64,000 bases of DNA from Eubacteriales bacterium (GCA_045594305.1 JAZNYH010000034.1:484-64483); one strand, 5' to 3'; shown: positions 3,429-55,850, counted from the first letter of the stretch. Notes: generated from the letters alone by a model not told the origin. Translations and numbers: made by a program.

Positions 3429-3449
3429 ACAACAAATCAAAACCTACAG

Positions 3450-3554: not shown

Positions 3555-3600
3555 AAGACAAATGTTTTTCCCAAAACCAGAAAGGACCCTGTGTACAGTT

Positions 3601-4605: not shown

Positions 4606-4668
4606 TAAAGTACAGATTGATATCAACACCTCTCTACATATCTTCCGTGGGGGAGGTCGGTCAAAGGA

Positions 4669-4702
4669 CGGTTGCATCCCGCGATGGATGCAGCCGTTTT
4701 TT
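4669..4702 (+). terminator. Intrinsic terminator after trpS
   Basis: An 11-bp stem, CGGTTGCATCC / GGATGCAGCCG, is followed by TTTTTT. Confidence 0.7.
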
Positions 4703-4739
4703 ATTTTTTGTTTGGGTTTTCGGAAAGGAATTGGAAGCC

Positions 4740-5705: not shown

Positions 5706-5795
5706 AGATGCTTGATTTTTTCCTCATGCCGTGCTATAATAAAACCAAAAAAACGCTTGTGTTTTTATCCATGGCACTTACGAAGGAGGTATTCT

Positions 5796-7472
5796 ATGAA
5801 ACACCGCATCCGTACGCTATCGCTATTTTTGGTTCTTTGCTTGCTTGTCGGTACGCTCTCGTCATGCTTTACCGTTTCGGATTGGATCGAGCCCCTGCCC
5901 GAGACCGAAAGCGGCTCCTCCATGGAAAGCACCACCGAGAAGGATTCAAGCAATGGTTCCGGACTTCCATCCGTGCTTGAATACACCCTGACACGCGGGT
6001 ACGTGGTGGATTTTATCGATCTTTTGGAGAGCTGCGAGGAGCTGACGCTTGTCGGTACCGATGTTGAGGCGATTGAGGCGGCTTGGCAAGAGGTGGAAGA
6101 ACAGTATTATCACATTGGCACGCAGCTGCAGATCGCCTACGTGCTGCTTTGCATTGACGAGACGAATGAGGAGTATTCGGATGCCTATTTGAAGGCTTCT
6201 GAACTGCAGGGAAAGGCTTATCACGCATACATGGAGGTTTGCCGTGCGATCGACAAGTCCGAGTCTCCGTATCGCGACGATTTTTTTTCGGATTGGACCG
6301 AGAGCGATTTGGAGAATATGCGCGGGTATTCCGAAAGTGCCGCAGAGCTGGATTTGCGCAACGATGAGATCCTTGTAGAATACCGCGCGCTTGATCTGAA
6401 TACGCAGGAAGAGAAGATGCTGCAGCTTTACTGCGAGTATGTACAAAATCTCAACGGTATTGCTGCAGAACAGGGATACGGCAACTATTACGACTACGCC
6501 ACCGACGAGGTGTATGATCGCGGATACGGAGAGGCAGAGCGCACTCGGTTCCGTACGTACGTCAGGGAAGTGGTACCGTCCTTGCTTTTTGAGGCGTACC
6601 AGCAGGTGTCTCTGCGCATCAATTCGCTCAATTACTTCCAATACAGCGTGGTGTTGGATTTTATCCAGGAATCCTACGACGAAATGGGTAAGGATTATGT
6701 AGCCCTGTATCTCGATTCATTTGATGGCGACACACGTGCCGTAATGCAATCGATGTTTGAGGAGAAGCACTCGTTTTTCACTGATTCGGATACCGCGCGC
6801 GCGGGCGCGTTTACCACCGAGTTGTACGAATACGACTCCGCCTTTTGCTATTTTGGCCCCGGGTATCAGTCAATCTGGACCGTGGTGCACGAGATGGGGC
6901 ACTTTTATGCAGCCGAGAGCCATGGCGACTCGATGGACCGCTTGGATCTTGCCGAAACGCATTCCCAAGGCAACGAGTGGTTGCTGATGGCGTTTTTGGA
7001 GCAAGAGGTGAGTGAGGCGGTGTATGAGACGATTTTGTATTACCAGCTCTACGAGTCCCTTTGTACGATCCTGGTCAGCACGATCGTGGACGAGTTTGAG
7101 GAAAAGGTCTACGAGAGGAATGCGGATATGGCTTTGACCGACTTTGATGCCATCATGGCATCGGTTTGCAAATCGTACGGCGGAATGGAGTTTTTGGAGA
7201 CCTACGTGGTGGGAGATATTCAGGCATATTGGAAATACGTGGTGATCGAAAGCCCTGTATATTATCTCAGCTATGCGGTCTCGGGGGTGGCGGCTTTGTC
7301 ACTCTATACAGCTGCCGAAGCCGATTATGACGAAGGACAAGAGATCTATTGCCGTTTGGTAGAGGATGCCGAGCTTTCCCATTCTTATCCCGAAATTCTG
7401 ACCGAAGCCGGTCTTGCCTCGCCGTTTGAAGCCGAGGTGTATGAGTCTTTATGGAACATTTTTGTCGATTGA
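5796..7472 (+). CDS. Lipoprotein, M3 (oligoendopeptidase F)-like zinc metallopeptidase
   Basis: RBS AAGGAGG at 5783-5789. Signal peptide plus lipobox: MKHRIRTLSLFLVLCLLVGTLSSC. The zinc motif HEMGH occurs in ...WTVVHEMGHFY.... Confidence 0.6.
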   Translation: MKHRIRTLSLFLVLCLLVGTLSSCFTVSDWIEPLPETESGSSMESTTEKDSSNGSGLPSVLEYTLTRGYVVDFIDLLESCEELTLVGTDVEAIEAAWQEVEEQYYHIGTQLQIAYVLLCIDETNEEYSDAYLKASELQGKAYHAYMEVCRAIDKSESPYRDDFFSDWTESDLENMRGYSESAAELDLRNDEILVEYRALDLNTQEEKMLQLYCEYVQNLNGIAAEQGYGNYYDYATDEVYDRGYGEAERTRFRTYVREVVPSLLFEAYQQVSLRINSLNYFQYSVVLDFIQESYDEMGKDYVALYLDSFDGDTRAVMQSMFEEKHSFFTDSDTARAGAFTTELYEYDSAFCYFGPGYQSIWTVVHEMGHFYAAESHGDSMDRLDLAETHSQGNEWLLMAFLEQEVSEAVYETILYYQLYESLCTILVSTIVDEFEEKVYERNADMALTDFDAIMASVCKSYGGMEFLETYVVGDIQAYWKYVVIESPVYYLSYAVSGVAALSLYTAAEADYDEGQEIYCRLVEDAELSHSYPEILTEAGLASPFEAEVYESLWNIFVD

Positions 7473-7502
7473 TCGGCATAATTTATATGGAGGGATTTTG
7501 TT

Positions 7503-8222
7503 ATGAACACTGTAAAAATTGAAAACAACGGCACGAAAATGGTAGCTCACCGCGGTGTGAGCGGACTCGAGCGCGAGAACACCAACCTTGCTTTTGTAGC
7601 GGCGGGGAACCGCTCCTACTTTGGAATCGAGACCGACATTCACTGCACGTCCGACGGAAACTTTGTGTTGCATCACGACGATACCACCACACGGTTGACG
7701 GGGATCGAGCGCGTGATCGAGGAGACCGATTTTGCCACTCTGCGAGCCATGCGCCTTTCGGACGTGGACGGCAGCTACGGGCGCGAGGATTTGGTCATGC
7801 CCACGCTGGAGGAGTACATCGGCATTTGCAAAAAATACGAAAAGGTTGCCGTGCTGGAGCTGAAGCGGCACATGGAAGAGGATCGGGTGCGCGCCATCAT
7901 CGACCGCATCGAAGCGATGGACTATCTCGGTGGGGTGATTTTTATATCCTTCGATTTTGAAAACCTTGTGTACGTACGCAATTACCGCCCCGAGCAGCCC
8001 GTACAGTTTTTGTTCTCCAAGCTCTCCGACGAGACTGTGGAAAAGATGATCGCGCATCGCTTTGATGCCGACGTGTATTTTAAAAGCGTTACACCGGAGT
8101 TTGTGCACATCATGCACGAAGCGGGACTTCTCGTCAACTGCTGGACGGTCGATACGCCCAAGGCTGCCGCCAACTTGATCGCCATGGGCGTGGACTTTAT
8201 TACCTCAAATATTTTGGAGTGA
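7503..8222 (+). CDS. Glycerophosphodiester phosphodiesterase family protein
   Basis: AHRGVSGLERENT...IETDIH is the GDPD signature. Confidence 0.8.
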   Translation: MNTVKIENNGTKMVAHRGVSGLERENTNLAFVAAGNRSYFGIETDIHCTSDGNFVLHHDDTTTRLTGIERVIEETDFATLRAMRLSDVDGSYGREDLVMPTLEEYIGICKKYEKVAVLELKRHMEEDRVRAIIDRIEAMDYLGGVIFISFDFENLVYVRNYRPEQPVQFLFSKLSDETVEKMIAHRFDADVYFKSVTPEFVHIMHEAGLLVNCWTVDTPKAAANLIAMGVDFITSNILE

Positions 8223-10411: not shown

Positions 10412-10485
10412 GCGAGTGTAGTTCAATGGTAGAATCCCAGCCTTCCAAGCTGGTCGCGTGGGTTCGATTCCCATCACTCGCTCCA
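10412..10485 (+). tRNA. tRNA-Gly (anticodon TCC)
   Basis: The hand-folded cloverleaf has acceptor GCGAGTG/CACTCGC and anticodon loop CTTCCAA. CCA is encoded. Confidence 0.9.
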
Positions 10486-10486
10486 A

Positions 10487-10520
10487 AGAAATTGCTTCTC
10501 ATTTTCGGGAAGCAATTTCT
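10487..10520 (+). other. Perfect 12-bp stem-loop between tRNA-Gly and the tRNA-Arg-like gene
   Basis: AGAAATTGCTTC (10487-10498) pairs with GAAGCAATTTCT (10509-10520) around a 10-nt loop. There is no T-tract. Confidence 0.6.
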
Positions 10521-10524
10521 TGAT

Positions 10525-10601
<77 letters not shown>

Positions 10602-10615
10602 ATTTTATATATTAT

Positions 10616-10693
10616 GGTGGATGTAGCTCAGTTGGTTAGAGTGCCAGGTTGTGGCCCTGGAGGTCGTCGGTTCGACCCCGATCATCCACCCCA
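10616..10693 (+). tRNA. tRNA-His (anticodon GTG), with the encoded G-1
   Basis: Acceptor GTGGATG/CATCCAC, an extra 5' G opposite C73, anticodon loop TTGTGGC, and encoded CCA. Confidence 0.9.
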
Positions 10694-10714
10694 TTTTTTT
10701 ATTTACATATATTT

Positions 10715-10789
10715 AGGGATGTAGCCAAGCGGTAAGGCAACGGACTTTGACTCCGTCACGCGTGAGTTCGAATCTCGCCATCCCTGCCA
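10715..10789 (+). tRNA. tRNA-Gln (anticodon TTG)
   Basis: Acceptor AGGGATG/CATCCCT, anticodon arm ACGGA-CTTTGAC-TCCGT, and encoded CCA. Confidence 0.9.
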
Positions 10790-35044: not shown

Positions 35045-35200
35045 ACAAAAAATCGCCCTCTTAGGGCGATACGAAGCAATATGCGCTATGCGCAAATCCT
35101 CTTTCATTCAGACTTTACTGCCGGTTTTGGAATTTAACCAAATCTGCTTTCGCTTGCGGACTTTACCGCCGATCGGGAATTTCACCCTGCCCTGAAGATT
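35045..35200 (-). promoter_or_regulatory. FMN riboswitch (RFN element) with an intrinsic terminator
   Basis: The minus strand reads CTTCAGGGCAGGGTGAAATTCCCGATCGGCGGTAAAGTCCGCAAGC...GGTTAAATTCCAAAACCGGCAGTAAAGTCTGAATGAAAGAGGA, followed by ATCGCCC-TAAGA-GGGCGAT and T6. Confidence 0.85.
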
Positions 35201-35360
35201 TATTACATTTAATTTTTATAATAAGATTATATTCCCATTTTTCTCGTTTGTCAAGCCTTTATAAAAAATTACAAAAAATCTCAAAAAATTACGAAATATC
35301 TATTGATATTTAAAATACCTTGTGATAAAATATTTTTATCAAAAATTGGGGGTAATAATT

Positions 35361-36362: not shown

Positions 36363-36540
36363 TATATTACCAAAATACACTGACATCCTTCAAAAAGCCT
36401 CGCATCAGCGAGGCTTTTTTATTGGAGCGTGCTTAGGTGATTATTTTGCAATTGTTAATTTTTCTTCTTACTTATTGACTTTAACAAATTAATGTGATAA
36501 ACTTATATTGTACAGATATTTTAATTTTAGGAGAGATTTT

Positions 36541-38307
36541 ATGAAAAAGCGACTATTATTTATTGCTGTTTGTCTTGCACTTTTTGTAGCACTTACAATT
36601 TGTGCCAGTGCGGCAACAACAAATGAATGGGGTACAGTTGAAACAAGCACCACAATTGACCTTACCGGCATGGCAACAGACACGGATTTGAGAGTTGTGC
36701 TTTTTGATGGAACAGAATATCACACATATCCTGCTCAATACATTGTAACAAGTGCAACTGACATTACCCTTGACTTTTCAAAAATCAATTCGGCGTTTGG
36801 TAAGGAGTATTCAACTGCAAACAACAGTGTAATCCGCATTGAAATACCAAGACATGTGCTGACTATTGTAAGCGGAGTTTTCAACTATGGCAAGAACAAC
36901 AATCTTGTTGAGGTATTCTTCCCCAAAGATTCAAAGGTCACAAAATTCAATTGGGGTTGCTTCGAAAAGAACACAGGACTTCAAAAAATCAATATTCCAG
37001 CGAGTCTTATCGAATACAATGGTAGCAATCATTTCGCAAAGTGCTCAAATCTTACTGAGATAACCTTTGATGAGGGTTATTCGGTCAGTTATATTCCTGC
37101 CAATTTTCTCCAAACCTGCTCTTCACTTGAATACCTTAAGTTTCCAAACTGTGTAACAGAGATTGGAGGCGGTGCTTTTGGTTCCTGTTCTAAGCTTAAA
37201 ACGATTATTTTTGGTGATAACCTACAGACTATGGGCGGATCTATGTCCGACTGCGCAACAAGTGGCTCTGTATGGTACTTGCCTGCAAGCTTTTATGCAT
37301 CAAATGTAACCGCAACTCCTCCGTCGGATATGTTCCACTGGGCAGGAACTCAAACAAATGGTGTCAGCGGAAACAGCAACAACCCAAAGAATATAACCTT
37401 TGTTTATACAGGCACTAAGGCTGAGGCGGAGGCGCTTCAGGCAAAATTTAAGGCTGCGGATGCTGCAACGGGTGAAAACTGTGTTGGTCTTTTAAGGCTT
37501 TACAATGCTACCCTCTGCACAGAGGAAGAATACGAGCAATTGACCGGCAAGAAAATTGGCGAAATTGCAACAGGATATTATCTTGTTTATGGCTACAACA
37601 GGTGTAAAGCGTTCTACGAAAACGAGCACGCTTTAAACGGCACAGGCTCTTGCCTTGACGGTGCAAGCTGTTCAAAATGTGGCTATTCAATCGGCAAAAA
37701 GACTGAGCACACTATATTTGAAACGCTCACCTACAAAAGCTACACCACTCAAGGTAGCTGGTGCTATGGTTGCTCAAATGAGGGTTGTGTTGTTATTGAC
37801 GCATCAAGCAAAACGCCTGCTATCTTTGTAGCAAGTGCTGCAAATGGCTTCTCTACAAACGGCAGAGGTGGTATTGCCTTTGGTGGCTTTAATGTTAATG
37901 TTTCTGCATTAGATGAATTTAATCGTGTAAACAAGGATAAGCCTCTTGTGTTTGGAATCATGCTTGTTAACCCTGCGTTTGTCGGTGATACATTTATGAA
38001 AAATGGTGAGGTTAATGCTCAAGGTGCCTTCTTACGGTTTGACCTTAGCAACACCAAATACACAAATATTGGAATAATGATGAACGGCTTTAACGAGGAA
38101 GCGGAAAAGCTTGCTCTTGTAATCTCACTTTATGCATACACTGACGCATCAAGCGTTGAGTACATTCAATCCGCTGATACTGCTTGTGCAAGTGCTAAGG
38201 TTACTAAGCAGGACGCTACCCTTTATACAATTACAGCAGAGTCAGTTATGAATAAGCCATATGGCTCAATTGAGGCTCTACCTGAATTCAAAAAGGACGA
38301 GGAATAA
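36541..38307 (+). CDS. Secreted BspA-type leucine-rich-repeat protein
   Basis: Signal peptide MKKRLLFIAVCLALFVALTICASA. LRR_5-like repeats (IPASLIEYNGSNHFAKCSNLTEITF...). Paralogous to 53471-54964. Confidence 0.65.
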   Translation: MKKRLLFIAVCLALFVALTICASAATTNEWGTVETSTTIDLTGMATDTDLRVVLFDGTEYHTYPAQYIVTSATDITLDFSKINSAFGKEYSTANNSVIRIEIPRHVLTIVSGVFNYGKNNNLVEVFFPKDSKVTKFNWGCFEKNTGLQKINIPASLIEYNGSNHFAKCSNLTEITFDEGYSVSYIPANFLQTCSSLEYLKFPNCVTEIGGGAFGSCSKLKTIIFGDNLQTMGGSMSDCATSGSVWYLPASFYASNVTATPPSDMFHWAGTQTNGVSGNSNNPKNITFVYTGTKAEAEALQAKFKAADAATGENCVGLLRLYNATLCTEEEYEQLTGKKIGEIATGYYLVYGYNRCKAFYENEHALNGTGSCLDGASCSKCGYSIGKKTEHTIFETLTYKSYTTQGSWCYGCSNEGCVVIDASSKTPAIFVASAANGFSTNGRGGIAFGGFNVNVSALDEFNRVNKDKPLVFGIMLVNPAFVGDTFMKNGEVNAQGAFLRFDLSNTKYTNIGIMMNGFNEEAEKLALVISLYAYTDASSVEYIQSADTACASAKVTKQDATLYTITAESVMNKPYGSIEALPEFKKDEE

Positions 38308-45749: not shown

Positions 45750-45756
45750 TAGATTA

Positions 45757-45784
45757 AAGGAACAGATTTTCTGTTCCTTTTTTG
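45757..45784 (+). terminator. Terminator after the pseudouridine synthase gene
   Basis: AAGGAACAG-ATTTT-CTGTTCCTT followed by a T-run. Confidence 0.75.
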
Positions 45785-45803
45785 CTTATATTTGCCTAAT
45801 TAC

Positions 45804-45832
45804 TTGAAAAGCTATATAATATATGATAAAAT
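45804..45832 (+). promoter_or_regulatory. Promoter of the TIR-fusion operon
   Basis: TTGAAA (45804-45809), 17 nt, then TAAAAT (45827-45832). Confidence 0.5.
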
Positions 45833-45876
45833 AATTATATGCGTATTACCACACTAAAATCGTTAAGGAGAATGCT

Positions 45877-48873
45877 ATGAAGGACGCTATTATTAATAAT
45901 AATCCGCCTGTTTCGGGCGATGACAAGAGCTTTATATTCATTTCCTATTCACACATGGACAAGGAAATGGTGTATGAGGACCTTTGGGCGTTGCACGAAA
46001 AAGGCTTTGCCTTTTGGTATGATAATGGAATAACCGCAGGAGAGGTTTGGAACGAGGTTGTTGAGGAGAAAATAAACCATCCAAGCTGTAAGCTTGCTAT
46101 CTTTTTCGTGTCCGAGAACACAATAAAAAGCCCTGCTATTAGGCGTGAAATGCAGCTCGTTCAGGATAGGAAGGTGCCCTTCTTTACCATAAACACAACT
46201 GGCACAATGGTTCAAACGCTTGTTGGTCAGGCACTTGTTGAGGGCAGTGTTAGTCTTACTGACATTTCTCTTTATCAATCCTTCTTCCATAATGACATAA
46301 TCTACATAAGCCGTAGTGAGGCTGGCTATATGGACAATGTCGCTATTCAGTGCATGCGTCACGGTCTTGAAGCAAGCTTTGAGGTTGTCAATGTAAGAAA
46401 CACCACAAAGAAGATACTTATAATCTGCAAAAACAGTAGCTTTTCTAACTCTATTATCAATGGAGTGTACGACTTCTTCTCTATGAAGGAGAATGTAATA
46501 GTCGACAAAAAGCTCGTTGACAAGAACCTAAACAGGCTTGAATGTGCAACAGAGTTTAGCCGTATTTTGCAGGAAAACATAAATGAATACGACGGCTTTA
46601 TTCTTCGTGTTCCCGAAAAGTATAACGACCAGCTCCTTAGCTACATCAACAAGATTATGGAGCTTGGAAAGAGAGTTGTTTTGCTCGATATTGAGCTAAG
46701 CCCCGACAAGCTAAATGGTGCGACCACAATTCCATCATATGTTGGTAGCGACTTTGTAACTGGTGGCATGCTCCTTGGCGAAAGAATGGGAGATCTTGCA
46801 ATCAAGCTCGGTCCAAACAACACAAGCATTGTGCTTTTTGAGGGTCCTTACGCAAATCCATCTGCAAAGATAAGATGCGATAGCCTTTATAGCAAGCTTA
46901 TTTCAACCGCTCCAAACGCCTCTATTCTTCGCTATAATTTGCCCTCTCTTACTGCCTCGACAGCCATTAACTACATAAAGGATCAGGCAAGCGATTGGGA
47001 AAAGAACAGAGCCTTAGCGGGCAAGAATGTCATCCTATTTTGTGGCATTGACAATATTGCCGTAGAGGTTATGCGTACGCTTGCAAGAAACGAGGACTTC
47101 AACCCTATAAACACAGTTTTAAAGGGTGCTAAAAAGCTCATTGTTGTTGGCTATGATGGTATTCGTGATGCCAATAACGAGGTTGTTCTCAAAAACTACG
47201 GAATTGATTTCCTAACAATAGATGTTGTTCCCTTTAAGCAGGGTGTAAATGCTGGCGAAAAGATGTTCTCTATGCTCTTTAAGCACGAGGAAAACGGCAA
47301 GCTTCTTACACAGCCTGAGCTTATTGAGTACATAAAATTCAACACAGAAAAGTTTGATAATGCACAGGACATTAAATTCCTTCTCAATGACAAAAAGGCG
47401 TTTATTTTCGACCTTGATGGCACAATTGCAGATACGGAAACGCTACACTGGGAGGCGTATAATGTTCTTCTTGCAGAGCATAATGTTCACCTGTCAAATA
47501 ATGATATAAGCAGGTATATTGGAAACTCCGAGGTGCGTATTTATGAGATGATAAAGCGTGACTTTGGTATTGATTTTGATGAGGATGATTTTCTTGAAAG
47601 GCGTATTGGTATTTACCTTGACCTTGTTGAGAAAAAGAATTTAAGACCATTTCCATTTATCTATGATATTTTGAAGATGTCAAATGGCAAAAATGCTATT
47701 GTAACCTCTCAAATTCCATTGGTTGTAAATAAGCTTTTAACCCTTTGGGGGCTTGATGATTACTTCCCTGCTAATATGCGCTTCTGTTGTCACGATGGCA
47801 GATATGTAAAGAAGGAAATCTACAAGAGCGTCGGCTCATATCTCGGCTTTAATCATCCCGTAAGCCCAAGAGATGTTGTTTTGTTTGAGGACTCTGTCCA
47901 TTATATTGCAGAGGCTAAAAAGCTCGGAATTACGGTTGTTGGTGTTGAGCATAAATTCAACAGACACACCTTAAAGGCGTGTGACGCTATTATGTCTGCA
48001 AGCCTACACAGAGGAGCATTTGTCGGTCTTTGTGGCTTAGATGTTGTTTATTATGGAACGACAGGTATGCCCGAGGAGGACTCAAAGATGAGCGTGCGTG
48101 ACTTCTCCTTTGAGGTTGGTGGCCCTGCTGCAAACGCTGCTATTACTTATGCTAAGCTCGGTGGAGAGGCGTATCTTGTAACTCGCATTGGCGATAGTGC
48201 CGAGGGGCTTTTGCTCAAATCCAAATTGAAGGAGCTTAATGTAAGGGTTATTGACATTGATGCCGATAACAAGGAGCGTAAGTGTAATGCGTCCTTTGTA
48301 TACATAAATCAATCAAACGCAACTCGAACAATATTTAGTGGTCAAATTCCACCCGCAGAGTCGTGCGATATTGACTTTGAGGAGATTGTTAAGCGTGCTG
48401 ATTTTGTCCTCTATGACGGCAATTTGCCAAGGGCTGAGGATAAGCTGATAAAGTATGTAGAATATTATGACAAGGACCTCATAATTGATGCAGGAAGCTA
48501 CAAGGCAGGATTTCCCGAGTGCTTCTATCGTGCAAGCACAGTAATATCCTCTGAGAGCTTTAAGGACCAATCTGGTGCAGATGTGTTTGAGCTACAAGGA
48601 AGATACGGATTTAGATACGCTGCAAAGACTCGTGGTGGCAAGTCAGTTATATATAATACTGCCACAGGTAGGGGCGAAATACCCGTTGAGAGCGTCAAGG
48701 CCATTGACACCCTTGGTGCTGGCGATATTATTCACGGTGCGTATTGCTATTTCTATTATGTAAAGAAGCTACCATTTGAAAAGGCTCTTGAAAATGCCTC
48801 TCGTATTGCAACCCTTAGCGTTACTAAGCGTGGTGTTGTAAATGGTCTTAAATATGCTATTGATAAGCTTTAA
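45877..48873 (+). CDS. Four-domain fusion: TIR-like, periplasmic-binding-protein (LacI-type) sugar-binding, HAD-IA phosphatase and PfkB carbohydrate kinase
   Basis: aa 18-140: FIFISYSHMD...GEVW...AIFFVSENTIKSPAIRRE. aa 178-485: VGSDFVTGG, FEGP, VVGYDG. aa 507-695: DLDGT (nt 47410), VTSQ, FEDS. aa 713-998: GGPAANAA and DTLGAGD (nt 48706). Confidence 0.7.
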   Translation: MKDAIINNNPPVSGDDKSFIFISYSHMDKEMVYEDLWALHEKGFAFWYDNGITAGEVWNEVVEEKINHPSCKLAIFFVSENTIKSPAIRREMQLVQDRKVPFFTINTTGTMVQTLVGQALVEGSVSLTDISLYQSFFHNDIIYISRSEAGYMDNVAIQCMRHGLEASFEVVNVRNTTKKILIICKNSSFSNSIINGVYDFFSMKENVIVDKKLVDKNLNRLECATEFSRILQENINEYDGFILRVPEKYNDQLLSYINKIMELGKRVVLLDIELSPDKLNGATTIPSYVGSDFVTGGMLLGERMGDLAIKLGPNNTSIVLFEGPYANPSAKIRCDSLYSKLISTAPNASILRYNLPSLTASTAINYIKDQASDWEKNRALAGKNVILFCGIDNIAVEVMRTLARNEDFNPINTVLKGAKKLIVVGYDGIRDANNEVVLKNYGIDFLTIDVVPFKQGVNAGEKMFSMLFKHEENGKLLTQPELIEYIKFNTEKFDNAQDIKFLLNDKKAFIFDLDGTIADTETLHWEAYNVLLAEHNVHLSNNDISRYIGNSEVRIYEMIKRDFGIDFDEDDFLERRIGIYLDLVEKKNLRPFPFIYDILKMSNGKNAIVTSQIPLVVNKLLTLWGLDDYFPANMRFCCHDGRYVKKEIYKSVGSYLGFNHPVSPRDVVLFEDSVHYIAEAKKLGITVVGVEHKFNRHTLKACDAIMSASLHRGAFVGLCGLDVVYYGTTGMPEEDSKMSVRDFSFEVGGPAANAAITYAKLGGEAYLVTRIGDSAEGLLLKSKLKELNVRVIDIDADNKERKCNASFVYINQSNATRTIFSGQIPPAESCDIDFEEIVKRADFVLYDGNLPRAEDKLIKYVEYYDKDLIIDAGSYKAGFPECFYRASTVISSESFKDQSGADVFELQGRYGFRYAAKTRGGKSVIYNTATGRGEIPVESVKAIDTLGAGDIIHGAYCYFYYVKKLPFEKALENASRIATLSVTKRGVVNGLKYAIDKL

Positions 48874-48885
48874 AGGAGATTTATT

Positions 48886-49332
48886 ATGAAAATTGCTATT
48901 GGAAACGATCATGTTGCTCTCGACTTGAAAAATCACATAAAGGGCTATCTTGAAGAAAAGGGCTACGAGGTGGTTGATTTTGGCACATATACCTCTGAGC
49001 GTACTGACTATCCTATCTACGCTAAAAGGGTTGCTGATGCTATTGTCGCTAAGGAGTGCGAGCTTGGTATTTTGATTTGTGGAACGGGTGTTGGTATTTC
49101 TATTGCTGCAAACAAGGTTGACGGTATTCGTGCTGCTGTTTGCTCAGAGCCATACTCTGCTGCTCTTACCCGTCAGCACAATAATGCAAACATTATTGCG
49201 TTTGGTGCAAGGGTTATTGGTACTGCTACTGCTGAAATGATTGTAGATGCGTTTCTTAATGCTGAATACGAGGGTGGCAGACACCAAAATCGTGTTGATA
49301 TGATAACAAAGATTGAAAAGGGAGAGCTTTAA
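48886..49332 (+). CDS. rpiB: Ribose-5-phosphate isomerase B
   Basis: MKIAIGNDHVALDLK...ILICGTGVGISIAANK. Confidence 0.9.
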   Translation: MKIAIGNDHVALDLKNHIKGYLEEKGYEVVDFGTYTSERTDYPIYAKRVADAIVAKECELGILICGTGVGISIAANKVDGIRAAVCSEPYSAALTRQHNNANIIAFGARVIGTATAEMIVDAFLNAEYEGGRHQNRVDMITKIEKGEL

Positions 49333-49333
49333 T

Positions 49334-50224
49334 ATGTATTGCTTAGGTCTTGATGTTGGTGGAACTAAAATCAACATCGGTATTCTTAATGAGGAATACA
49401 AGCTCGTAGCTATAAAAAAGCTATATATTAGCGACATTGTCGAGCCTACTGCCGATATTAAGAGTGCCGTTTTACAGCTTTGCAAGGAATGTGGGGTTGA
49501 CTATGGCGAGCTTTCGTCGTGTGGAGTTGGCGTACCTGGAACTGTAAGTGCTGACGGCAAAACGCTTATAAAGGCTCCTAACATTGATATTCTCACCTCG
49601 GATTTTGCGACAAGGCTTGAGGCGGTGCTTAAAATTCCCGTATTTATGATGCAGGATTCAAGGGCTGCTGCGTGGGGTGAATACCTTTGCGGTGCAGGCG
49701 TTGGCTCTAAGACCTTAGTGTGTATAACCATTGGCACAGGCATTGGCACGGGCATTGTTATAGACGGAAAAATATACAATGGTGCTCTTGGTACGGCTGG
49801 CGAGCTTGGACATGTGCCCGTTGTTGAAAATGGCAGGCCCTGTGGCTGTGGCAAGGTTGGTTGTATGGAAAAATACTGCGCAGGCAGAGGTCTTGATATT
49901 ACTGCGAGCGAGCTTCTTTATGAGGGAGCTGATGCCTCAGCTCTATTCGAGGCTTCAAGGAACGGCAATGAGGACGCTAAGCGTGCTATTGACAATGCAA
50001 TTATGCTCCTTGGAAGCACCTTGGTTTCGGCAGTTAATCTTCTCTCGCCCGATTGTATGCTATTTAGCGGTGGAATGAGCGAGCAGGAGGAGCTATTCTT
50101 AAACCCTCTTATCGAATACATATCCTCACATTGCTACTCCTCGGGCACTCTTGTTCGAATGGAAAAGGCTAAGCTTGGAGAGTATGCCCCTTTAATTGGA
50201 GCAGGTCTTGGTAGCAGGCAATAA
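49334..50224 (+). CDS. ROK family sugar kinase
   Basis: LGLDVGGTKINIG and GELGH...C.CG..GC ROK zinc motif. The ATG lies 2 nt after the rpiB stop. Confidence 0.8.
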   Translation: MYCLGLDVGGTKINIGILNEEYKLVAIKKLYISDIVEPTADIKSAVLQLCKECGVDYGELSSCGVGVPGTVSADGKTLIKAPNIDILTSDFATRLEAVLKIPVFMMQDSRAAAWGEYLCGAGVGSKTLVCITIGTGIGTGIVIDGKIYNGALGTAGELGHVPVVENGRPCGCGKVGCMEKYCAGRGLDITASELLYEGADASALFEASRNGNEDAKRAIDNAIMLLGSTLVSAVNLLSPDCMLFSGGMSEQEELFLNPLIEYISSHCYSSGTLVRMEKAKLGEYAPLIGAGLGSRQ

Positions 50225-50233: not shown

Positions 50234-50264
50234 AAAAAAAGCAGACCAAACGGTCTGCTTTTTT
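50234..50264. terminator. Bidirectional terminator
   Basis: GCAGACC-AAAC-GGTCTGC flanked by A7 and T6. Confidence 0.75.
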
Positions 50265-50289: not shown

Positions 50290-50484
50290 TTACTTGCTCT
50301 TTTTTTCCTCACTCTGCTCGCCGTGGCATATACCAGACATTGCACAGTTAGAGCAACCACATCCACAAGAGGATTTGCCCTGCTTTTTGTTTTTTACAAG
50401 CCTTACGATTATTGCGACTACAACGCCCAGAAGGAGAATTGATATAGCGATTGTAGCGAGGTTATTTGTTATAAATTCAATCAC
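50290..50484 (-). CDS. FeoB-associated Cys-rich membrane protein
   Basis: One TM helix followed by SSCGCGCSNCAMSGIC. It lies immediately downstream of feoB. Confidence 0.7.
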   Translation of the reverse strand: MIEFITNNLATIAISILLLGVVVAIIVRLVKNKKQGKSSCGCGCSNCAMSGICHGEQSEEKKSK

Positions 50485-50505: not shown

Positions 50506-52947
50506 TTATTTTTTTGCCCTTACAAGTCCCTTTGCCTTTTCGATTAGTGAAAAGTCCTTAGGTCTTGCTATCATATATACAATAAATGCCAAAGCAAGTA
50601 TTGCAGAAATTAGTCCAAGTGTGCTTGCTACTGGTGAAATTACTCCAAAGAGATTTCCACTAACAAGTGAGCCGAACCAATAGATGATGAGTGCTACAAG
50701 GTATGCAAAGCCACACTGATAGCCAATTGCGAACCAAGTCCATTTTGCTGAGTTCATCTCACGCTTGATTGCACCGATTGCTGCGAAGCAAGGAGCACAA
50801 AGTAGGTTAAATGCAAGGAAGGAATAGCCTGCTATCTTTGTCATCTCAAAGAAGTCAAGAACTCCAAATACTGCAACAACCTCCTCCTTAGCTACAAGTC
50901 CCATAAAGGTTGCAACTGTTGCCTCAATGCTACCAAAGCCAATTGGAGCAAAGAGCCATTTAAGAGCGTTTCCTATGTATCCGAGGATACTGTCGGCAAG
51001 CTCCATTTCAAGAGCGAAGCCAAAGCCGTCGCCTGTGTTTCCAATGTGTGATACGATCCAAATTACTATTGTTGAAAGAAGGATTATTGTTCCTGCCTTC
51101 TTAATGAATGACCAGCCACGCTCCCACATGCTACGAAGAATGTTTTTAAGTGTTGGCATATGGTATGCAGGAAGCTCCATTATAAAGGGGGACGGATCTC
51201 CTGCAAAGGGCTTTGTCTTTTTAAGGATAAGTCCTGATATTACAACTGCTACAATTCCAAGGAAGTATGCACTTGGTGCTACCCACCACGCTCCTCCAAA
51301 GAGTGCACTTGCGATAAGTCCAATTACTGGAAGCTTTGCTCCACAGGGGATAAAGCTTGTTGTCATTATGGTCATTCTTCTGTCTCTTAGGTTCTCTATT
51401 GTTCTTGATGCCATAATGCCTGGAACGCTACATCCTGTGCCGATAAGCATAGGTATAAAGGACTTTCCGCTAAGTCCAAGCTTTCTAAATATTCTATCCA
51501 TTACAAAGGCAATTCTTGCCATATAGCCACACGCTTCAAGGAATGCCAAAAGAAGGAATAGAACAAGGATTTGTGGTACGAAGCCAAGAACTGCTCCTAC
51601 ACCACCTACAATACCGTCAACGATAAGTGAGTAGAGCCACTCTGCAATTGTTAGCTCGCCCTCATCGTTTGTAAAGAGCTTTTCAAAGAGAACGGGAACG
51701 CCATTTATCCATACACCATACTCTGATGGGTCGGGGGCGGTTTCTATCATTCCTGCAAGGAAGGACGCAGTTATTGGATCGTGCATTGCAAGTGCCTCAC
51801 CATAGGAGCCAAACGCCTCCTCTAAGGCACCGAAGTCCTCATCGTTTATGGCGTTAAGGATTTCCTCTGCGCCGACAACCTCATTTTTAACTGCGATTTC
51901 AAGTGCGCCCTTAGTTGCATCGTTCCATATCGGCTTTGCGTGCTCCTCGACAACCTCCTCGTACTCTCCACTCATTCCAAAGAGGTGGAAGCCGTCGCCA
52001 AAGACACCGTCGTTTGCCCAATCCGTTGCCCATGTTCCAATTGTTGTTACTGAAATAAAGTAAACAAGGAACATAATAAGTGCGAATATTGGGAGTGCGA
52101 GCCACTTGTTTGTTACTATTTTGTCGATTTTCTCTGTTACGGTTGGCTTGCCATCGTTCTTCTTTTTAAGACACTTAGCGGTTACATCTGTAACAAAGTT
52201 ATATCTTTCGTTTGTTATAATGCTCTCTGCGTCATCATCAAAGCTCTTTTCAAGCTCTGCGCTGATTTGCTCGATTTTTGCAAGAGCCTCATCGTTTAAG
52301 CCAAGGGATTTAATTACCCTTTCATCACGCTCAATAAGCTTTATTGCGTACCATCTTTTCTTGTTCTCAGGTACAAGGTCGCAAATCAGATTGCATACGC
52401 TCTTAATTGCTCCCTCAACCTCTGATGAGAAGCGATGAACGGCACTTGTCTGCTCGCCCGACTTAGCACTCTCGATAACTACATCAGCAGCCTCCATAAT
52501 GCCTGTGCCTTTAAGAGCAGATATTTCTACGATTTTACAGCCGATAAGCCTTGATAGCTTATTAATGTCTATCTCGTCGCCTGTTTTTCTTATTATATCG
52601 ACCATATTTATCGCAACAACAACAGGCACACCAAGCTCGGTAAGCTGAGTTGTGAGATAAAGGTTTCTTTCAAGGTTTGTTCCGTCAACTATGTTAAGAA
52701 TGGCATTTGGCTTTTCATTCAAAATATAGTTTCTTGCCACTACCTCCTCAAGTGAGTATGGCGAAAGGGAATAAATTCCTGGTAGGTCAGTAAGGATAAT
52801 ATCCTCGTGCCTTTTGATTTTTCCCTCTTTTTTCTCTACTGTAACGCCAGGCCAGTTTCCTACGAACTGATTTGCGCCTGTAAGTGCATTAAAGAGAGTT
52901 GTTTTTCCCGAGTTCGGGTTGCCCGCTAAGGCAATCTTGTATTCCAT
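50506..52947 (-). CDS. feoB: Ferrous iron transporter B
   Basis: The N-terminal G-domain IALAGNPNSGKTTLFNALTG is followed by a large polytopic membrane domain. Confidence 0.9.
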   Translation of the reverse strand: MEYKIALAGNPNSGKTTLFNALTGANQFVGNWPGVTVEKKEGKIKRHEDIILTDLPGIYSLSPYSLEEVVARNYILNEKPNAILNIVDGTNLERNLYLTTQLTELGVPVVVAINMVDIIRKTGDEIDINKLSRLIGCKIVEISALKGTGIMEAADVVIESAKSGEQTSAVHRFSSEVEGAIKSVCNLICDLVPENKKRWYAIKLIERDERVIKSLGLNDEALAKIEQISAELEKSFDDDAESIITNERYNFVTDVTAKCLKKKNDGKPTVTEKIDKIVTNKWLALPIFALIMFLVYFISVTTIGTWATDWANDGVFGDGFHLFGMSGEYEEVVEEHAKPIWNDATKGALEIAVKNEVVGAEEILNAINDEDFGALEEAFGSYGEALAMHDPITASFLAGMIETAPDPSEYGVWINGVPVLFEKLFTNDEGELTIAEWLYSLIVDGIVGGVGAVLGFVPQILVLFLLLAFLEACGYMARIAFVMDRIFRKLGLSGKSFIPMLIGTGCSVPGIMASRTIENLRDRRMTIMTTSFIPCGAKLPVIGLIASALFGGAWWVAPSAYFLGIVAVVISGLILKKTKPFAGDPSPFIMELPAYHMPTLKNILRSMWERGWSFIKKAGTIILLSTIVIWIVSHIGNTGDGFGFALEMELADSILGYIGNALKWLFAPIGFGSIEATVATFMGLVAKEEVVAVFGVLDFFEMTKIAGYSFLAFNLLCAPCFAAIGAIKREMNSAKWTWFAIGYQCGFAYLVALIIYWFGSLVSGNLFGVISPVASTLGLISAILALAFIVYMIARPKDFSLIEKAKGLVRAKK

Positions 52948-53470: not shown

Positions 53471-54964
53471 TTATGATTGTGAGGTTGGGTAGTAAATGTT
53501 ATTTGCGCTTACGATATTGAAGTCGATTTCTTCAATGGTAATTGTGGTGTTAGGAGAATTCTTGAGTCCCGCTTGAACATAGTGAACTCCATCCTCTGTC
53601 TTAACCGCAATCGCTGTGATAAGAGTAAGGGTGTAGAAGCTTCCCTTATCGGTGCTATCGTCAAAGCCTCTTGCCTCTATACTTATGTTTGTGTAGTTAA
53701 CAGATTCAATCTTTACATTTATTCCCTTTACGCCATCAACAAGCTCAAGTGTTTCTCCGTCAAGAATTTTTTCAATGTTGGCATTTTGGTTCTTTGAGTT
53801 TACCATAAAGAGCGCAAGGCTTGCATCAACCTCATTAAGCTCGTTATAAAGTGTAAGTAGCTCCTTGTCAATTCTAAAGCCCGCATTTATTCCCTTATAG
53901 CTTGCATGCTCAGGCACAGAGTAGCCTTTAAATGTGATAATTGCGCCTGCCTTTTCGTCTGTGCTTATTTCATCGCAACCAACGCGAGCGCATTGAATGT
54001 GCTTTGTTCCCTCGCCATCAAAGCTTTCATAAGTAAGACCTACGAGCTTTGCACCATTTGCAATTGCAAAATCGTGACCAAGCGCTGGTGTTTTTATAAG
54101 ACCGCAACGAACGCAAGCGATAGCGTCAATACAGGTAAGCTTTTCGCTATTTTTGTGTGTAGAGCCATAATACACATCGCAGTGATTTACATACTTAACG
54201 CTTGATGGCTGATATGTCCATCCTGCTACTGTTCCCTCTGCTCCTGTAAAATTGATAGTAAAACTTGCCCATTGCGAGACTTCAAAGGTTGTAACAGACT
54301 TAGGAACAGTAAGCTCCAGATTAAGGCTAACGAAAGCATTTGATTGAATTGTTGTAAGATTTTCAGGAAGAACTATGCTTGTAAGCTTTTTACAGTTATA
54401 GAAGCCGTTAGTTCTCATTTCTGTTATTTGAGAGCCAGCTTCAAAATCAATTCCAACAAGCGACGTGCAAGCGTAAAAAATCGAAGCCTCCTTATTTCCG
54501 TTTTTTCCAACAAGGGCAGTCATACTCGCAGGAATATAAGCATATGTCATAGGAGTTCCCTCGCAAACAAAATTGAGCTTTTGAGGTCCGTTTCCATCTG
54601 CGTGCTTAATTCCATCAAGGTTCATAATCATAACGTTGCCACTCCAAGCTCCAGCCTTCAATCCGTCGTAGGAATAGCAAAGATAGTAGTCATCATTTAC
54701 ATAAGCTGCAATCTTAGTCTTTACACTTACAATATAGTAGGTATTTTCGCCAGATACATAAGTATAATATGTACCATTTGTTGGCTCGGTTGTTACTCTG
54801 TACCAAGTGAGAGAGTCTCCGTCGCTATCGTAGGTAGGAAGCACTATTGGGTTTCCACTTGTGTCGGTAAGACCCGTGTTAATGTCCTTTGCGAATGCAC
54901 TCAGTGCAAGCACAAGCACGAAAACGAGCATCATCGTTAGAGTAATGATTAGTCTTTTTTTCAT
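53471..54964 (-). CDS. Secreted BspA-type leucine-rich-repeat protein (paralogue of 36541-38307)
   Basis: RBS AAGGAGA lies before MKKRLIITLTMMLVFVLVLALSAFA. It has LRR_5-like repeats and a shared Cys-motif C-terminal domain. Confidence 0.65.
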   Translation of the reverse strand: MKKRLIITLTMMLVFVLVLALSAFAKDINTGLTDTSGNPIVLPTYDSDGDSLTWYRVTTEPTNGTYYTYVSGENTYYIVSVKTKIAAYVNDDYYLCYSYDGLKAGAWSGNVMIMNLDGIKHADGNGPQKLNFVCEGTPMTYAYIPASMTALVGKNGNKEASIFYACTSLVGIDFEAGSQITEMRTNGFYNCKKLTSIVLPENLTTIQSNAFVSLNLELTVPKSVTTFEVSQWASFTINFTGAEGTVAGWTYQPSSVKYVNHCDVYYGSTHKNSEKLTCIDAIACVRCGLIKTPALGHDFAIANGAKLVGLTYESFDGEGTKHIQCARVGCDEISTDEKAGAIITFKGYSVPEHASYKGINAGFRIDKELLTLYNELNEVDASLALFMVNSKNQNANIEKILDGETLELVDGVKGINVKIESVNYTNISIEARGFDDSTDKGSFYTLTLITAIAVKTEDGVHYVQAGLKNSPNTTITIEEIDFNIVSANNIYYPTSQS

Positions 54965-55040
54965 AAAATTTCTCCTTACTTTAATTAGTGGTTGATTTGT
55001 CGTTTTGTTTGTGATAAAATTGATTACAGGGGGTGATGCC

Positions 55041-55850
55041 ATGATTATTGCTTCACGCATAAGCAGACCTAATATTATTGTACACTATATCGATTTCACC
55101 GACTTGCCCATCACTGTTTGCGAGCTTGGCTGGGAGAAAACCTCTCCTAATCACACTTGGTCACCAAACGGCAGACCAAGATATCTTATTCACCTTATAA
55201 AAAGTGGCAAGTGTACCATTGAACGAAATGGTGTAATAACTCATTTGTCGCGTGGAGATTGCTTTATAAATTGTCCCGATGAGTCAAGCATTATAAAGAC
55301 TGATTTTGCAGAGCCCTGTGAGTATTATTGGATTGCCTTCAACGGAGCTTACGCAAAGCAAATTTTACGAGAAGCAACCGAAAATCTATATCCAAAATTC
55401 AAAGAAAGCGGGCTTATAGCAATAGATACTCTACTCAAAAATGAAAATTACGACCACATAAGCTCTCTTAGCACTCTTTTTTCCGTGCTCAATTCAATAA
55501 AGGATGAAAGCAAGCAAGAAACAATAGATTTCGTAAAAAGCGCGACAATTTATATTGAAAACAATTATTTTGAAGCCTTCAATGTAAGTAACTACGCAAA
55601 GCAAATTGGAATTTCACGCGCGCATTTTACAACCATTTTTACCAAAAGAGTTGGAATATCCCCTTACGATTATCTTATTAAAACACGAATCGCAGTTGCT
55701 ATGCGATATTTAAAAGAAAACAAGCTTTCAATTTCGCAAATTGCATACAAGGTTGGCTTTTCCTCCCTTGACCGATTTGGTAAAATATTCAAAAAGATAA
55801 CAGGTAAATCTCCAAAAGAATATAAATCTTCTATTTTAAGTATAACATAA
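55041..55850 (+). CDS. AraC family transcriptional regulator
   Basis: The C-terminal ISQIAYKVGFSSLDRFGKIFKKITGKSPKEY is an AraC HTH. Confidence 0.8.
   Translation: MIIASRISRPNIIVHYIDFTDLPITVCELGWEKTSPNHTWSPNGRPRYLIHLIKSGKCTIERNGVITHLSRGDCFINCPDESSIIKTDFAEPCEYYWIAFNGAYAKQILREATENLYPKFKESGLIAIDTLLKNENYDHISSLSTLFSVLNSIKDESKQETIDFVKSATIYIENNYFEAFNVSNYAKQIGISRAHFTTIFTKRVGISPYDYLIKTRIAVAMRYLKENKLSISQIAYKVGFSSLDRFGKIFKKITGKSPKEYKSSILSIT

What the first reader, a model, noticed from the sequence alone, without database searches (positions are those of the whole stretch)
45877..50224. TIR / sugar-binding PBP / HAD phosphatase / PfkB kinase in one 998-aa protein, co-transcribed with rpiB and a ROK kinase
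A single uninterrupted ORF strings together four modules.
- aa 18-140 look like a bacterial TIR domain: FIFISYSHMD, GEVW, and AIFFVSENTIKSPAIRRE with a candidate catalytic Glu91 at nt 46147.
- aa 178-485 look like a LacI/RbsB-type ligand-binding fold.
- aa 507-695 are a HAD-IA phosphatase (DLDGT, VTSQ, FEDS).
- aa 713-998 are a PfkB/ribokinase-type kinase (DTLGAGD).
The gene has its own promoter (45804-45832) after a strong terminator. It is followed 12 nt later by rpiB and then by a ROK kinase that starts 2 nt after the rpiB stop, so the three genes look like one transcription unit.
Bacterial TIR domains are known as NAD+-cleaving or signal-generating enzymes in anti-phage systems such as Thoeris. 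I know of no described architecture that couples a TIR to a small-molecule sensor domain plus a phosphatase and a sugar kinase.
My inference is that an N-glycosidase (acting on NAD+ or a nucleotide) is coupled to (phospho)ribose processing under ligand control. That could mean a signalling or defence module, or a new ribosyl-salvage route. No ThsA/SLOG, Macro or NUDIX partner is visible in the window.
Basis: partly seen in the sequence, partly recalled or inferred. Interest (0 to 1): 0.85.

Follow-up and report, generated by a model that had tools for sequence, protein, structure and literature searches.

The report
TIR–sugar-sensor–phosphatase–kinase fusion protein
A gut Clostridia-type bacterium encodes a real, conserved 998-residue protein that joins an NAD-cleaving TIR "immune" domain to a sugar-binding sensor, a sugar-phosphate phosphatase and a sugar kinase; I found no published description of this combination, and it probably couples NAD breakdown to a sugar signal.

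Summary
ORF 45877-48873 (+) is uninterrupted and has four modules:
- a canonical TIR domain (Pfam above cutoff; the structure model matches almost only TIR NADases; Glu91 is invariant and aligns with the catalytic Glu);
- an RbsB/LacI-type sugar-binding fold;
- a HAD-IA phosphatase with motifs I-IV intact;
- a PfkB kinase closest to E. coli sulfofructose kinase YihV, not to ribokinase.

It is not an assembly artefact. The architecture recurs in about 30 protein clusters (32-72% identity) from independent assemblies, and every catalytic or ligand-binding residue I checked is invariant in a 21-sequence sample.

rpiB and a ROK kinase follow in an apparent operon. That linkage holds only in the window's subclade. 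Distant members instead carry a sugar O-acetyltransferase and a roughly 690-aa membrane protein. In relatives the TIR is replaced by a two-helix membrane hairpin.

There is no Thoeris partner and no PADLOC system match. I found nothing on plasmids or viral contigs, only one weak partial phage hit, and no literature on this architecture.

Best reading (about 0.4): a sugar-gated TIR NADase whose attached kinase and phosphatase set or consume the ligand. I rate it a new variant of a known kind, function untested.

The parts
45756..45780 (+). Terminator-like hairpin (11-bp stem plus T run) ending the upstream pseudouridine-synthase gene
   Evidence: sequence
45792..45832 (+). Two overlapping sigma-70-like promoter matches (TTGCCT-17-TATAAT; TTGAAA-17-TAAAAT with an extended TG)
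   Evidence: These are consensus matches only, not proof of function.
45877..48873 (+). 998-aa TIR / PBP-like / HAD / PfkB fusion gene (RBS AAGGAG at 45866-45871)
45928..46359 (+). TIR domain (aa 18-161). The Glu91 codon is at 46147-46149.
   Evidence: Pfam TIR_2 43.3 bits. The domain model has pLDDT 88.6 and pTM 0.85. Foldseek top hits are nearly all TIR domains: RPP1, RPS4, SPARTA, AbTir, BtpA. In profile alignments E91 pairs with the conserved Glu of ThsB and TLR TIRs. E91 is invariant.
46408..47346 (+). Cytoplasmic type-I periplasmic-binding-protein-like (RbsB/LacI-like) sugar-binding module (aa 178-490)
   Evidence: The profile hits the PDB ribose-, galactose- and allose-binding proteins (E 9e-8 to 1e-4). 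Pfam is weak here but above cutoff in the relative P0049. Invariant positions: K185 S187 F189 R244 D271 S291 R333 D392 D427 Q455. No hydrophobic segment is present.
47395..47961 (+). HAD-IA phosphatase (aa 507-695). Motif I is D512-x-D514-G-T, motif II S611, motif III K645, motif IV E671-D672.
   Evidence: (best PDB match is the TM_1254 sugar-phosphate phosphatase)
48010..48870 (+). PfkB-family kinase (aa 712-998) with G748-G749 and G949-D950 (GAGD), closest to YihV
   Evidence: 7ag6, E 1e-13; 7ag6, Foldseek E 9e-18, TMt 0.80
48886..49332 (+). rpiB, ribose-5-phosphate isomerase B (148 aa)
   Evidence: TIGR01120 212 bits against a cutoff of 138.65. It is 81-90% identical in the related cassettes.
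49334..50224 (+). ROK-family sugar kinase (296 aa from the ATG), specificity unassigned
   Evidence: PF00480 222 bits. It falls below every NCBIfam equivalog cutoff. ATG position.
50235..50264 (.). 13-bp hairpin with A/T runs on both sides (the scan scored it on the minus strand); it probably ends the three-gene unit

Best explanation
The gene encodes a cytoplasmic multi-enzyme. A catalytically competent TIR NAD(P)+ glycohydrolase or cyclase is joined to a sugar-binding sensor of the RbsB/LacI type. Two enzymes in the same chain follow: a YihV-like PfkB kinase and a HAD-IA sugar-phosphate phosphatase.

Proposed mechanism (inferred, not shown): the PBP-like module binds a monosaccharide or its phosphate. 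The attached kinase and phosphatase interconvert the phosphorylated and unphosphorylated forms and so set the ligand level. Ligand-driven closure of the PBP, or a change in oligomerisation, switches TIR self-association on or off, and with it NAD+ cleavage.

In the window's subclade, RpiB and a ROK kinase are co-transcribed. They would feed or drain the same sugar-phosphate pool.

Shown: the domains, the intact catalytic and ligand-binding residues, the family conservation, and the operon layout.
Inferred: the NADase activity, the gating by a sugar, the identity of the sugar, and the physiological role. The role could be a stress or conflict effector, or a metabolic checkpoint.
For: - TIR identity and the catalytic Glu.
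- All four modules are under similar purifying selection. Mean pairwise identity is TIR 0.35, PBP 0.35, HAD 0.47 and PfkB 0.43, against 0.19 for the linker. E91, the HAD motifs, GAGD and the PBP pocket-type residues are invariant.
- The PBP module resembles ribose-, galactose- and allose-binding proteins. It occupies the position after an N-terminal output module, as in LacI-type regulators.
- In relatives the N-terminal TIR is replaced by a two-helix hydrophobic hairpin, while PBP-HAD(-PfkB) is kept. P0038 is followed by a separate PfkB that is 39% identical; P0049 is another example. By established knowledge, TIR/TM swapping in front of a ligand sensor is typical of signal-gated effectors (TIR- or TM-SAVED, -STING, Pycsar effectors).
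- The gene looks accessory. It is rare: about 30 clusters at 90% or 50% identity in libraries built from about 15 billion proteins, and one GTDB species. Its flanks differ in every lineage examined.
- One member sits beside a TIR-TPR protein. The closest non-family TIR lies in a multi-TIR array.
- Accessory neighbours are enzymes for free sugars: a ROK kinase, and a Maa/LacA-type O-acetyltransferase.
Against: - There is no biochemical evidence.
- The full-length model has pTM 0.53, so the inter-domain geometry that would support allosteric gating is not established.
- PADLOC gives no system-level hit, only weak TIR matches.
- In the window the neighbours are housekeeping genes (iPGM, RluA-type synthase, FeoB, PGM), and GC content is the same as the surroundings.
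- A kinase and a phosphatase in one chain may instead act in sequence on different positions, as HldE and GmhB do. That would point to biosynthesis rather than ligand control.
- The conserved rpiB link in four lineages fits a metabolic route.
Confidence: 0.4

Rival explanations
1. Ribosyl or NAD-derived metabolite salvage. The TIR acts as an N-glycosidase on NAD+, NMN or a nucleotide. The HAD and PfkB modules trim and re-phosphorylate the released ribosyl product. RpiB passes ribose-5-phosphate into the pentose-phosphate pathway. The PBP module holds or channels the ribose.
For: - rpiB is directly co-transcribed in four lineages, with a 4-nt overlap in L001.
- The PBP profile matches ribose- and allose-binding proteins.
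- In the P0003 lineage the gene sits at the end of a same-strand array of nucleotide phosphatases: Metallophos/5'-nucleotidase, HD, two DHH-DHHA1, SurE.
- Published comparative genomics notes ADPr-releasing enzymes coupled to HD, calcineurin-like and HAD phosphatases (PMC9503650).
Against: - The kinase fails the ribokinase equivalog (76.8 against 299.65 bits) and is closest to YihV.
- rpiB and ROK are missing from 6 of the 10 lineages examined.
- No Nudix or other enzyme that would free ribose-5-P from ADPR is present in the scanned part of the window.
- The nucleotide-phosphatase array is absent from the window.
- The family is very rare for a salvage pathway.
- rpiB may simply be the genome's housekeeping copy, inherited next to an old insertion. 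It is more conserved (81-90%) than the fusion (63-72%).
Confidence: 0.2
2. A sugar-phosphate remodelling or biosynthetic enzyme. ROK and RpiB make a sugar-6(5)-phosphate or ketose phosphate. The PfkB module phosphorylates C1. The HAD module removes the distal phosphate. This is the logic of GmhA/HldE/GmhB in ADP-heptose synthesis, or of LacAB/LacC. The TIR then uses NAD+ as an ADP-ribosyl donor to build a new glycoside, or serves only as an oligomerisation scaffold.
For: - PfkB-kinase plus HAD-phosphatase plus isomerase is an established three-step motif (HldE/GmhB/GmhA; established knowledge).
- There are weak NCBIfam hits to heptose-7-P kinase domain I (26.5 bits).
- YihV, the closest solved relative, phosphorylates C1 of a ketose (established knowledge).
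- HAD-PfkB fusions without TIR or PBP exist (P0036, P0041).
- An acetyltransferase and a membrane protein flank distant members.
Against: - There is no nucleotidyltransferase, aldolase or glycosyltransferase in the unit.
- The invariant catalytic Glu argues against a purely structural TIR.
- An ADP-ribosyl transfer onto a free sugar phosphate by a TIR has, to my knowledge, not been described.
Confidence: 0.15
3. An artefact: an assembly chimera or a read-through of separate genes.
For: None found.
Against: - The same uninterrupted four-domain protein occurs in independent assemblies from NCBI, ENA, Logan and JGI, at 32-100% identity.
- The linkers are variable while the domains are conserved.
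Confidence: 0.01

Closest known systems
Sensor-fused TIR NADase effectors (TIR-SAVED, TIR-STING, Pycsar PycTIR, CRISPR Cat1 CARF-TIR, SARM1)
   Same: A TIR with the catalytic Glu sits in one polypeptide with a small-molecule-binding domain. Relatives swap the TIR for a short membrane hairpin, as in the TM- and TIR- versions of SAVED, STING and Pycsar effectors (established knowledge).
   Different: The sensor here is a type-I PBP (RbsB/LacI-like) sugar-binding fold, not a nucleotide sensor. Two intact metabolic enzymes (HAD, PfkB) are in the same chain. No separate signal-generating cyclase is adjacent. There is no PADLOC system match.
Thoeris ThsB (TIR signal synthase)
   Same: The TIR profile's best PDB sequence match is a ThsB (9uv0, E 3.4e-5), with the Glu aligned.
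   Different: No ThsA (SIR2-SLOG or TM-Macro) partner was found among the window genes scanned. The PADLOC ThsB models are not hit. The protein is about five times larger than ThsB.
LacI/RbsB-family sugar-binding modules
   Same: The profile matches ribose-, galactose- and allose-binding proteins. The module follows an N-terminal output domain, as in LacI regulators.
   Different: There is no HTH and no signal peptide. Sequence similarity is remote: Pfam is below cutoff for this protein.
E. coli sulfofructose kinase YihV (PfkB family)
   Same: It is the best sequence match (E 1e-13) and the best fold match (E 9e-18, TMt 0.80). The N-terminal 'GGPAA' and the GAGD motifs are shared.
   Different: Identity is only 22-24%. 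No sulfoglycolysis genes were found among the neighbours scanned. Substrate specificity cannot be transferred at this distance.
Kinase/phosphatase pairs acting on sugar phosphates (HldE-GmhB; PFK-2/FBPase-2)
   Same: A sugar kinase and a phosphatase are combined, either to move a phosphate or to set the level of a regulatory sugar phosphate (established knowledge).
   Different: The relationship is by logic only. PFK-2/FBPase-2 uses unrelated folds. HldE matches are far below cutoff.
E. coli als/rpiB locus (AlsK ROK kinase, RpiB/AlsI, AlsB allose-binding protein)
   Same: It has the same set of family types: a ROK kinase, RpiB and an RbsB-like binding fold.
   Different: The ROK protein is below the allose-kinase cutoff (148.6 against 253 bits). 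No AlsE epimerase or ABC transporter is adjacent. The TIR, HAD and PfkB modules have no counterpart there.

Membership tests
TIR domain (Pfam PF13676 TIR_2), enzymatic class | HMM score above the curated cutoff | tested here: met
   43.3 bits against a cutoff of 28
TIR domain (Pfam PF13676 TIR_2), enzymatic class | Flavodoxin-like TIR fold | tested here: met
   The domain model has pLDDT 88.6. Nearly all of the 50 listed Foldseek PDB hits are TIR domains, TM 0.56-0.66.
TIR domain (Pfam PF13676 TIR_2), enzymatic class | Catalytic Glu on helix alpha-C | tested here: met
   E91 aligns with the conserved Glu of ThsB (9uv0, 3hyn) and TLR TIRs. It is invariant in 21-23 family members. This rests on sequence alignment only, with no residue-level structural superposition.
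TIR domain (Pfam PF13676 TIR_2), enzymatic class | NAD+ cleavage activity | not testable with these tools
   Needs an enzyme assay
Thoeris defence system | Adjacent ThsA effector (SIR2-SLOG or TM-Macro) | tested here: not met
   Pfam on neighbours across 39.8-63.4 kb and PADLOC on the three operon genes show none
Any catalogued anti-phage system (PADLOC-DB 2.0) | Match to a system-specific model | tested here: not met
   Only weak TIR-region hits (24.8, 22.4 and 14.9 bits) and none for rpiB or ROK
Type-I periplasmic binding protein fold (Peripla_BP_4 / RbsB-LacI) | Profile-level homology to sugar-binding PBPs | tested here: met
   The single sequence is below the Pfam cutoff (17.5 against 35.1). 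The family profile hits 2ioy at 9e-8, plus MglB, RbsB and AlsB. The relative P0049 scores 39.2 bits.
Type-I periplasmic binding protein fold (Peripla_BP_4 / RbsB-LacI) | Binding of a sugar ligand | not testable with these tools
   Pocket-type residues are invariant, but the ligand is unknown
HAD-IA phosphatase | Motifs I-IV (DxDxT, S/T, K, E/D-D) and a cap | tested here: met
   HAD_2 63.2 bits. D512, D514, T516, S611, K645, E671 and D672 are invariant.
PfkB carbohydrate kinase family | HMM above cutoff, GG motif and GAGD catalytic base | tested here: met
   76.2 bits against 25.8. G748, G749, G949 and D950 are invariant. The fold matches YihV and ribokinases.
Ribokinase (TIGR02152 equivalog) | Score above the equivalog cutoff | tested here: not met
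   76.8 bits against a cutoff of 299.65
RpiB (TIGR01120) for the downstream gene | Score above the equivalog cutoff | tested here: met
   212.1 bits against 138.65
ROK glucokinase / allose kinase for the third gene | Score above the subfamily or equivalog cutoff | tested here: not met
   152.6 against 260.35, and 148.6 against 253. Only general ROK family membership is met (222 bits).

The most novel reading that the evidence does not exclude
The protein is a self-contained signalling effector that uses a phosphosugar instead of a nucleotide as its messenger. The PfkB module makes the signal and the HAD module resets it. The PBP module senses it. The N-terminal module executes the response: a TIR NADase here, a membrane hairpin in relatives. 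This would be an abortive-infection or stress response. It would also be the first TIR immune-type effector gated by a sugar-binding PBP fold.
Probability: 0.13. Interest if true: 0.9.

Novelty: new variant of a known kind. Interest (0 to 1): 0.62.

Why it matters
TIR domains are the shared NAD-cleaving engine of bacterial, plant and animal immunity. What switches them on is the central question for each system. Known bacterial switches are nucleotides or nucleic acids.

A conserved family in which an intact TIR is joined to a sugar-binding sensor and to an intact sugar kinase and phosphatase would link NAD+ destruction, or NAD-derived signal synthesis, to carbohydrate status. One possibility is a new trigger class for TIR effectors. 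The other is a new route that makes or recycles NAD-derived ribosyl compounds in gut anaerobes.

The family is small and self-contained, and it needs no partner protein in most lineages. That makes it a tractable single-protein system for biochemistry.

Tried and rejected
1. Assembly-fusion artefact: rejected.
2. Metagenome scan for more contexts. The patterns fell in the PfkB domain and returned 80 standalone PfkB loci. None has an adjacent TIR, PBP or HAD relative. Uninformative.
3. Mobile-element origin. There is no plasmid match, no viral-contig match, and one weak phage hit (25% identity over the TIR only).
4. I read a Nudix box in the C-terminus of the TIR relative P0091. Pfam, NCBIfam and PDB searches found nothing, so I dropped the idea.
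5. I suspected that the roughly 690-aa membrane partner of distant members is RyR-like, as is the neighbour of P0091. phmmer was not significant, so this is left as an unverified motif resemblance.
6. A weak YAcAr/SLOG hit next to P0026 (E 3e-4, below cutoff) is too weak to use, and PADLOC found nothing.
7. The nucleotide-phosphatase array seen upstream in the P0003 lineage is not present in the window.
8. There is no riboswitch or other Rfam element upstream of the gene.
9. Source annotations give no name for any member.

Full report
**The observation**

The window carries an uninterrupted ORF at 45877-48873 (+) of 998 codons.
- It starts with an ATG preceded by AAGGAG.
- A hairpin with a T run at 45756-45780 ends the upstream RluA-type pseudouridine-synthase gene. 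Two overlapping promoter-like matches lie at 45792-45832.
- rpiB (48886-49332) starts 12 nt after the stop.
- A ROK-family gene starts at 49334, one base after the rpiB stop.
- A 13-bp hairpin at 50235-50264 follows.

The promoter and terminator calls are consensus matches only.

**The four modules**

Pfam gives TIR_2 (aa 20-97, 43.3 bits, cutoff 28), HAD_2 (510-690, 63.2 bits) and PfkB (76.2 bits). It gives only a sub-threshold Peripla_BP_4 hit (17.5 against 35.1 bits).

TIR:
- A model of residues 1-172, built on 23 family sequences, has pLDDT 88.6 and pTM 0.85.
- Its Foldseek matches in the PDB are almost exclusively TIR domains. They include plant RPP1, RPS4, SNC1 and RUN1, SPARTA TIR-APAZ, AbTir, BtpA and PdTIR, over about 160 columns with TM about 0.6.
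- A family profile hits a ThsB (9uv0, E 3.4e-5), AbTir and TLR TIR domains. In these alignments Glu91 (nt 46147-46149) pairs with their conserved Glu.

Middle module:
- A profile of 18 sequences hits periplasmic ribose-, galactose/glucose- and allose-binding proteins (2ioy at 9e-8, then MglB, RbsB, AlsB).
- The relative P0049 passes the Pfam cutoff.
- The protein has no hydrophobic segment. This is therefore a cytoplasmic sensor-type PBP fold, as in LacI regulators.

HAD:
- It resembles sugar-phosphate phosphatases (TM_1254; the beta-PGM/YqaB group).

Kinase:
- It is not a ribokinase by NCBI's equivalog model (76.8 against 299.65 bits).
- Its closest solved relative is E. coli sulfofructose kinase YihV, by sequence (E 1e-13) and by fold (E 9e-18, TMt 0.80). 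Identity is only 22-24%, so no substrate can be assigned.

**A real, conserved family**

- A word-indexed search found 17 full-length clusters at 51-72% identity.
- An exhaustive profile search found about a dozen further 50%-identity clusters with the same end-to-end architecture, down to about 32% identity.
- They come from NCBI, ENA, Logan and JGI assemblies, so a chimera is excluded.
- In a 21-sequence alignment the following are invariant:
  - TIR: G43, Y48, S85, E91.
  - PBP, at positions that correspond to the sugar-contacting loops of RbsB-type proteins: K185, S187, F189, R244, D271, S291, R333, D392, D427, Q455.
  - HAD motifs I-IV: D512, D514, T516, S611, K645, E671, D672.
  - PfkB: G748, G749, N849, D871, G949, D950.
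- Mean pairwise identity is similar across modules: TIR 0.35, PBP 0.35, HAD 0.47, PfkB 0.43. The TIR-PBP linker is free to vary (0.19).

All four parts are therefore maintained as working units.

**Distribution and context**

- Only one of 185,579 GTDB species genomes gave a full-length hit, a Eubacteriales MAG. That scan finds close relatives only.
- I found nothing on plasmids or viral contigs. One weak TIR-only phage hit appeared.
- No source gives the protein a name.
- Within the window the neighbours are ordinary: iPGM, a pseudouridine synthase, FeoB, PGM, LeuC-like. GC content is not anomalous.
- Across lineages the flanks differ every time.

The rpiB-ROK pair follows the gene in the window, in P0002 and in P0003. 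The RpiB proteins are 84-90% identical and the ROK proteins 68-74%. In the Eubacteriales MAG only rpiB follows, overlapping the fusion's stop. P0013, P0016 and P0018 have neither gene.

Two distant lineages (P0028, P0030) instead have a Maa/LacA-type sugar O-acetyltransferase overlapping the start codon. P0030 and P0026 share a roughly 690-aa membrane protein downstream (E 1e-31).

One member (P0018) lies next to a TIR-TPR protein, a WYL protein and a T4SS coupling protein. In the P0003 lineage the gene ends a same-strand array of nucleotide phosphatases. That array is not in the window.

**Modularity**

- Relatives exist as HAD-PfkB only (P0036, P0041).
- Others consist of a two-helix hydrophobic hairpin plus PBP-HAD, followed by a separate PfkB that is 39% identical (P0038).
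- P0049 is a tandem [hairpin-PBP]x2.
- The TIR itself, including its C-terminal helical extension, recurs fused to an unidentified domain in P0091. That gene sits in an array of TIR proteins.

PBP-HAD-PfkB is thus a unit whose N-terminal module is exchangeable between a TIR and a membrane hairpin.

**Interpretation**

The features fit best with a sensor-gated TIR effector. The TIR is intact. A ligand-binding fold follows it directly. TIR/TM exchange is the pattern seen in SAVED-, STING- and cNMP-gated effectors (established knowledge). The gene is rare and its position varies.

The attached kinase and phosphatase, and the sugar-acting neighbours (ROK kinase, RpiB, O-acetyltransferase), point to a monosaccharide or sugar phosphate as the controlling ligand. 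I put this at about 0.4. The gating, the ligand and the physiological role are inferences.

- For it: rpiB is linked in four lineages, the PBP resembles ribose- and allose-binding proteins, and ADPr-releasing enzymes are known to be coupled to phosphatases (PMC9503650).
- Against it: the kinase is not a ribokinase, rpiB is absent from most lineages, nothing in the unit would release ribose-5-P from ADPR, and the family is rare.

A remodelling or biosynthetic reading gets about 0.15. In it the PfkB adds a C1 phosphate and the HAD removes the distal one, as HldE and GmhB do, perhaps feeding a TIR-made NAD-derived glycoside.

**Comparison with known systems**

It is not Thoeris, because there is no ThsA. 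It matches no PADLOC system.

Seven literature searches and two targeted reads found no description of a TIR joined to a PBP, HAD or PfkB module. The library does not cover all subscription journals, so absence is not proof.

I classify it as a new variant of a known kind: a ligand-sensor-fused TIR enzyme with a new sensor class and in-cis metabolic enzymes.

**Limits**

- The full-length model has pTM 0.53, so the domain arrangement is unknown.
- The Glu91 equivalence rests on profile alignments and fold matches, not on a residue-level superposition.
- Context evidence comes from about ten lineages, many on short contigs.

Noticed in passing
window 255-3440 (and GC over 1-8000): About 3.2 kb in which long ORFs are open on both strands (1061 aa on the minus strand, 985 aa on the plus strand), with no Pfam match. 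The first 8 kb of the window is 0.49-0.53 GC against about 0.41 elsewhere. It could be a repetitive or foreign gene.
   Followed up: partly
window 35092-35203 (-): FMN riboswitch, 108 bits.
   Followed up: no
window 10412-10789 (+): A tRNA cluster (Gly, His, Gln). Rfam also calls a partial tRNA at 10532-10590 (model positions 8-63) that ARAGORN does not report. It may be a degenerate tRNA.
   Followed up: no
window 50290-50484 (-): A 64-aa protein with one hydrophobic helix and a CGCGCSNC...C motif, encoded immediately downstream of feoB (50506-52947, minus strand). It looks like the small Cys-rich membrane protein often found with FeoB; that identification is from my own knowledge.
   Followed up: partly
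window 36508-38307 (+) and 53471-55060 (-): Two BspA-type LRR_5 proteins. The closest TIR hits outside the family (P0020-P0023) are TIR plus LRR fusion proteins, two of them with LRR_5.
   Followed up: no
L017:1022-10524: An array of TIR proteins on one contig: TIR fused to an unknown domain (P0091), a 702-aa RyR-domain protein, a methyltransferase, TIR-Cupin, and TIR-NPHP3_N-TPR.
   Followed up: partly
L099:8549-10618 and L098:7313-9406: A roughly 690-aa protein with N-terminal hydrophobic helices, conserved downstream of two distant family members (22% identity, E 1e-31). Its C-terminal 'EHxRWN...GW' motif recalls the RyR domain, but no search confirmed this.
   Followed up: partly
L099:4998-5540, L101:1952-2488: A Maa/LacA-type sugar O-acetyltransferase overlaps the start of the fusion gene in two distant lineages. 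The two copies are about 50% identical to each other. The best NCBIfam match is maltose O-acetyltransferase (154 bits, below cutoff).
   Followed up: partly
L003:2572-9957: A same-strand array directly upstream of the fusion gene in the P0003 lineage: Metallophos/5'-nucleotidase, HD, two DHH-DHHA1, SurE, a metallo-beta-lactamase-fold protein and ThuA. It is absent from the window.
   Followed up: partly
L098:5933-6451: A 172-aa protein next to the P0026 family member, with a weak sub-threshold hit to the YAcAr (YspA/cpYpsA-related SLOG) family (E 3e-4, 20.9 against 28.2 bits). PADLOC and NCBIfam found nothing.
   Followed up: partly
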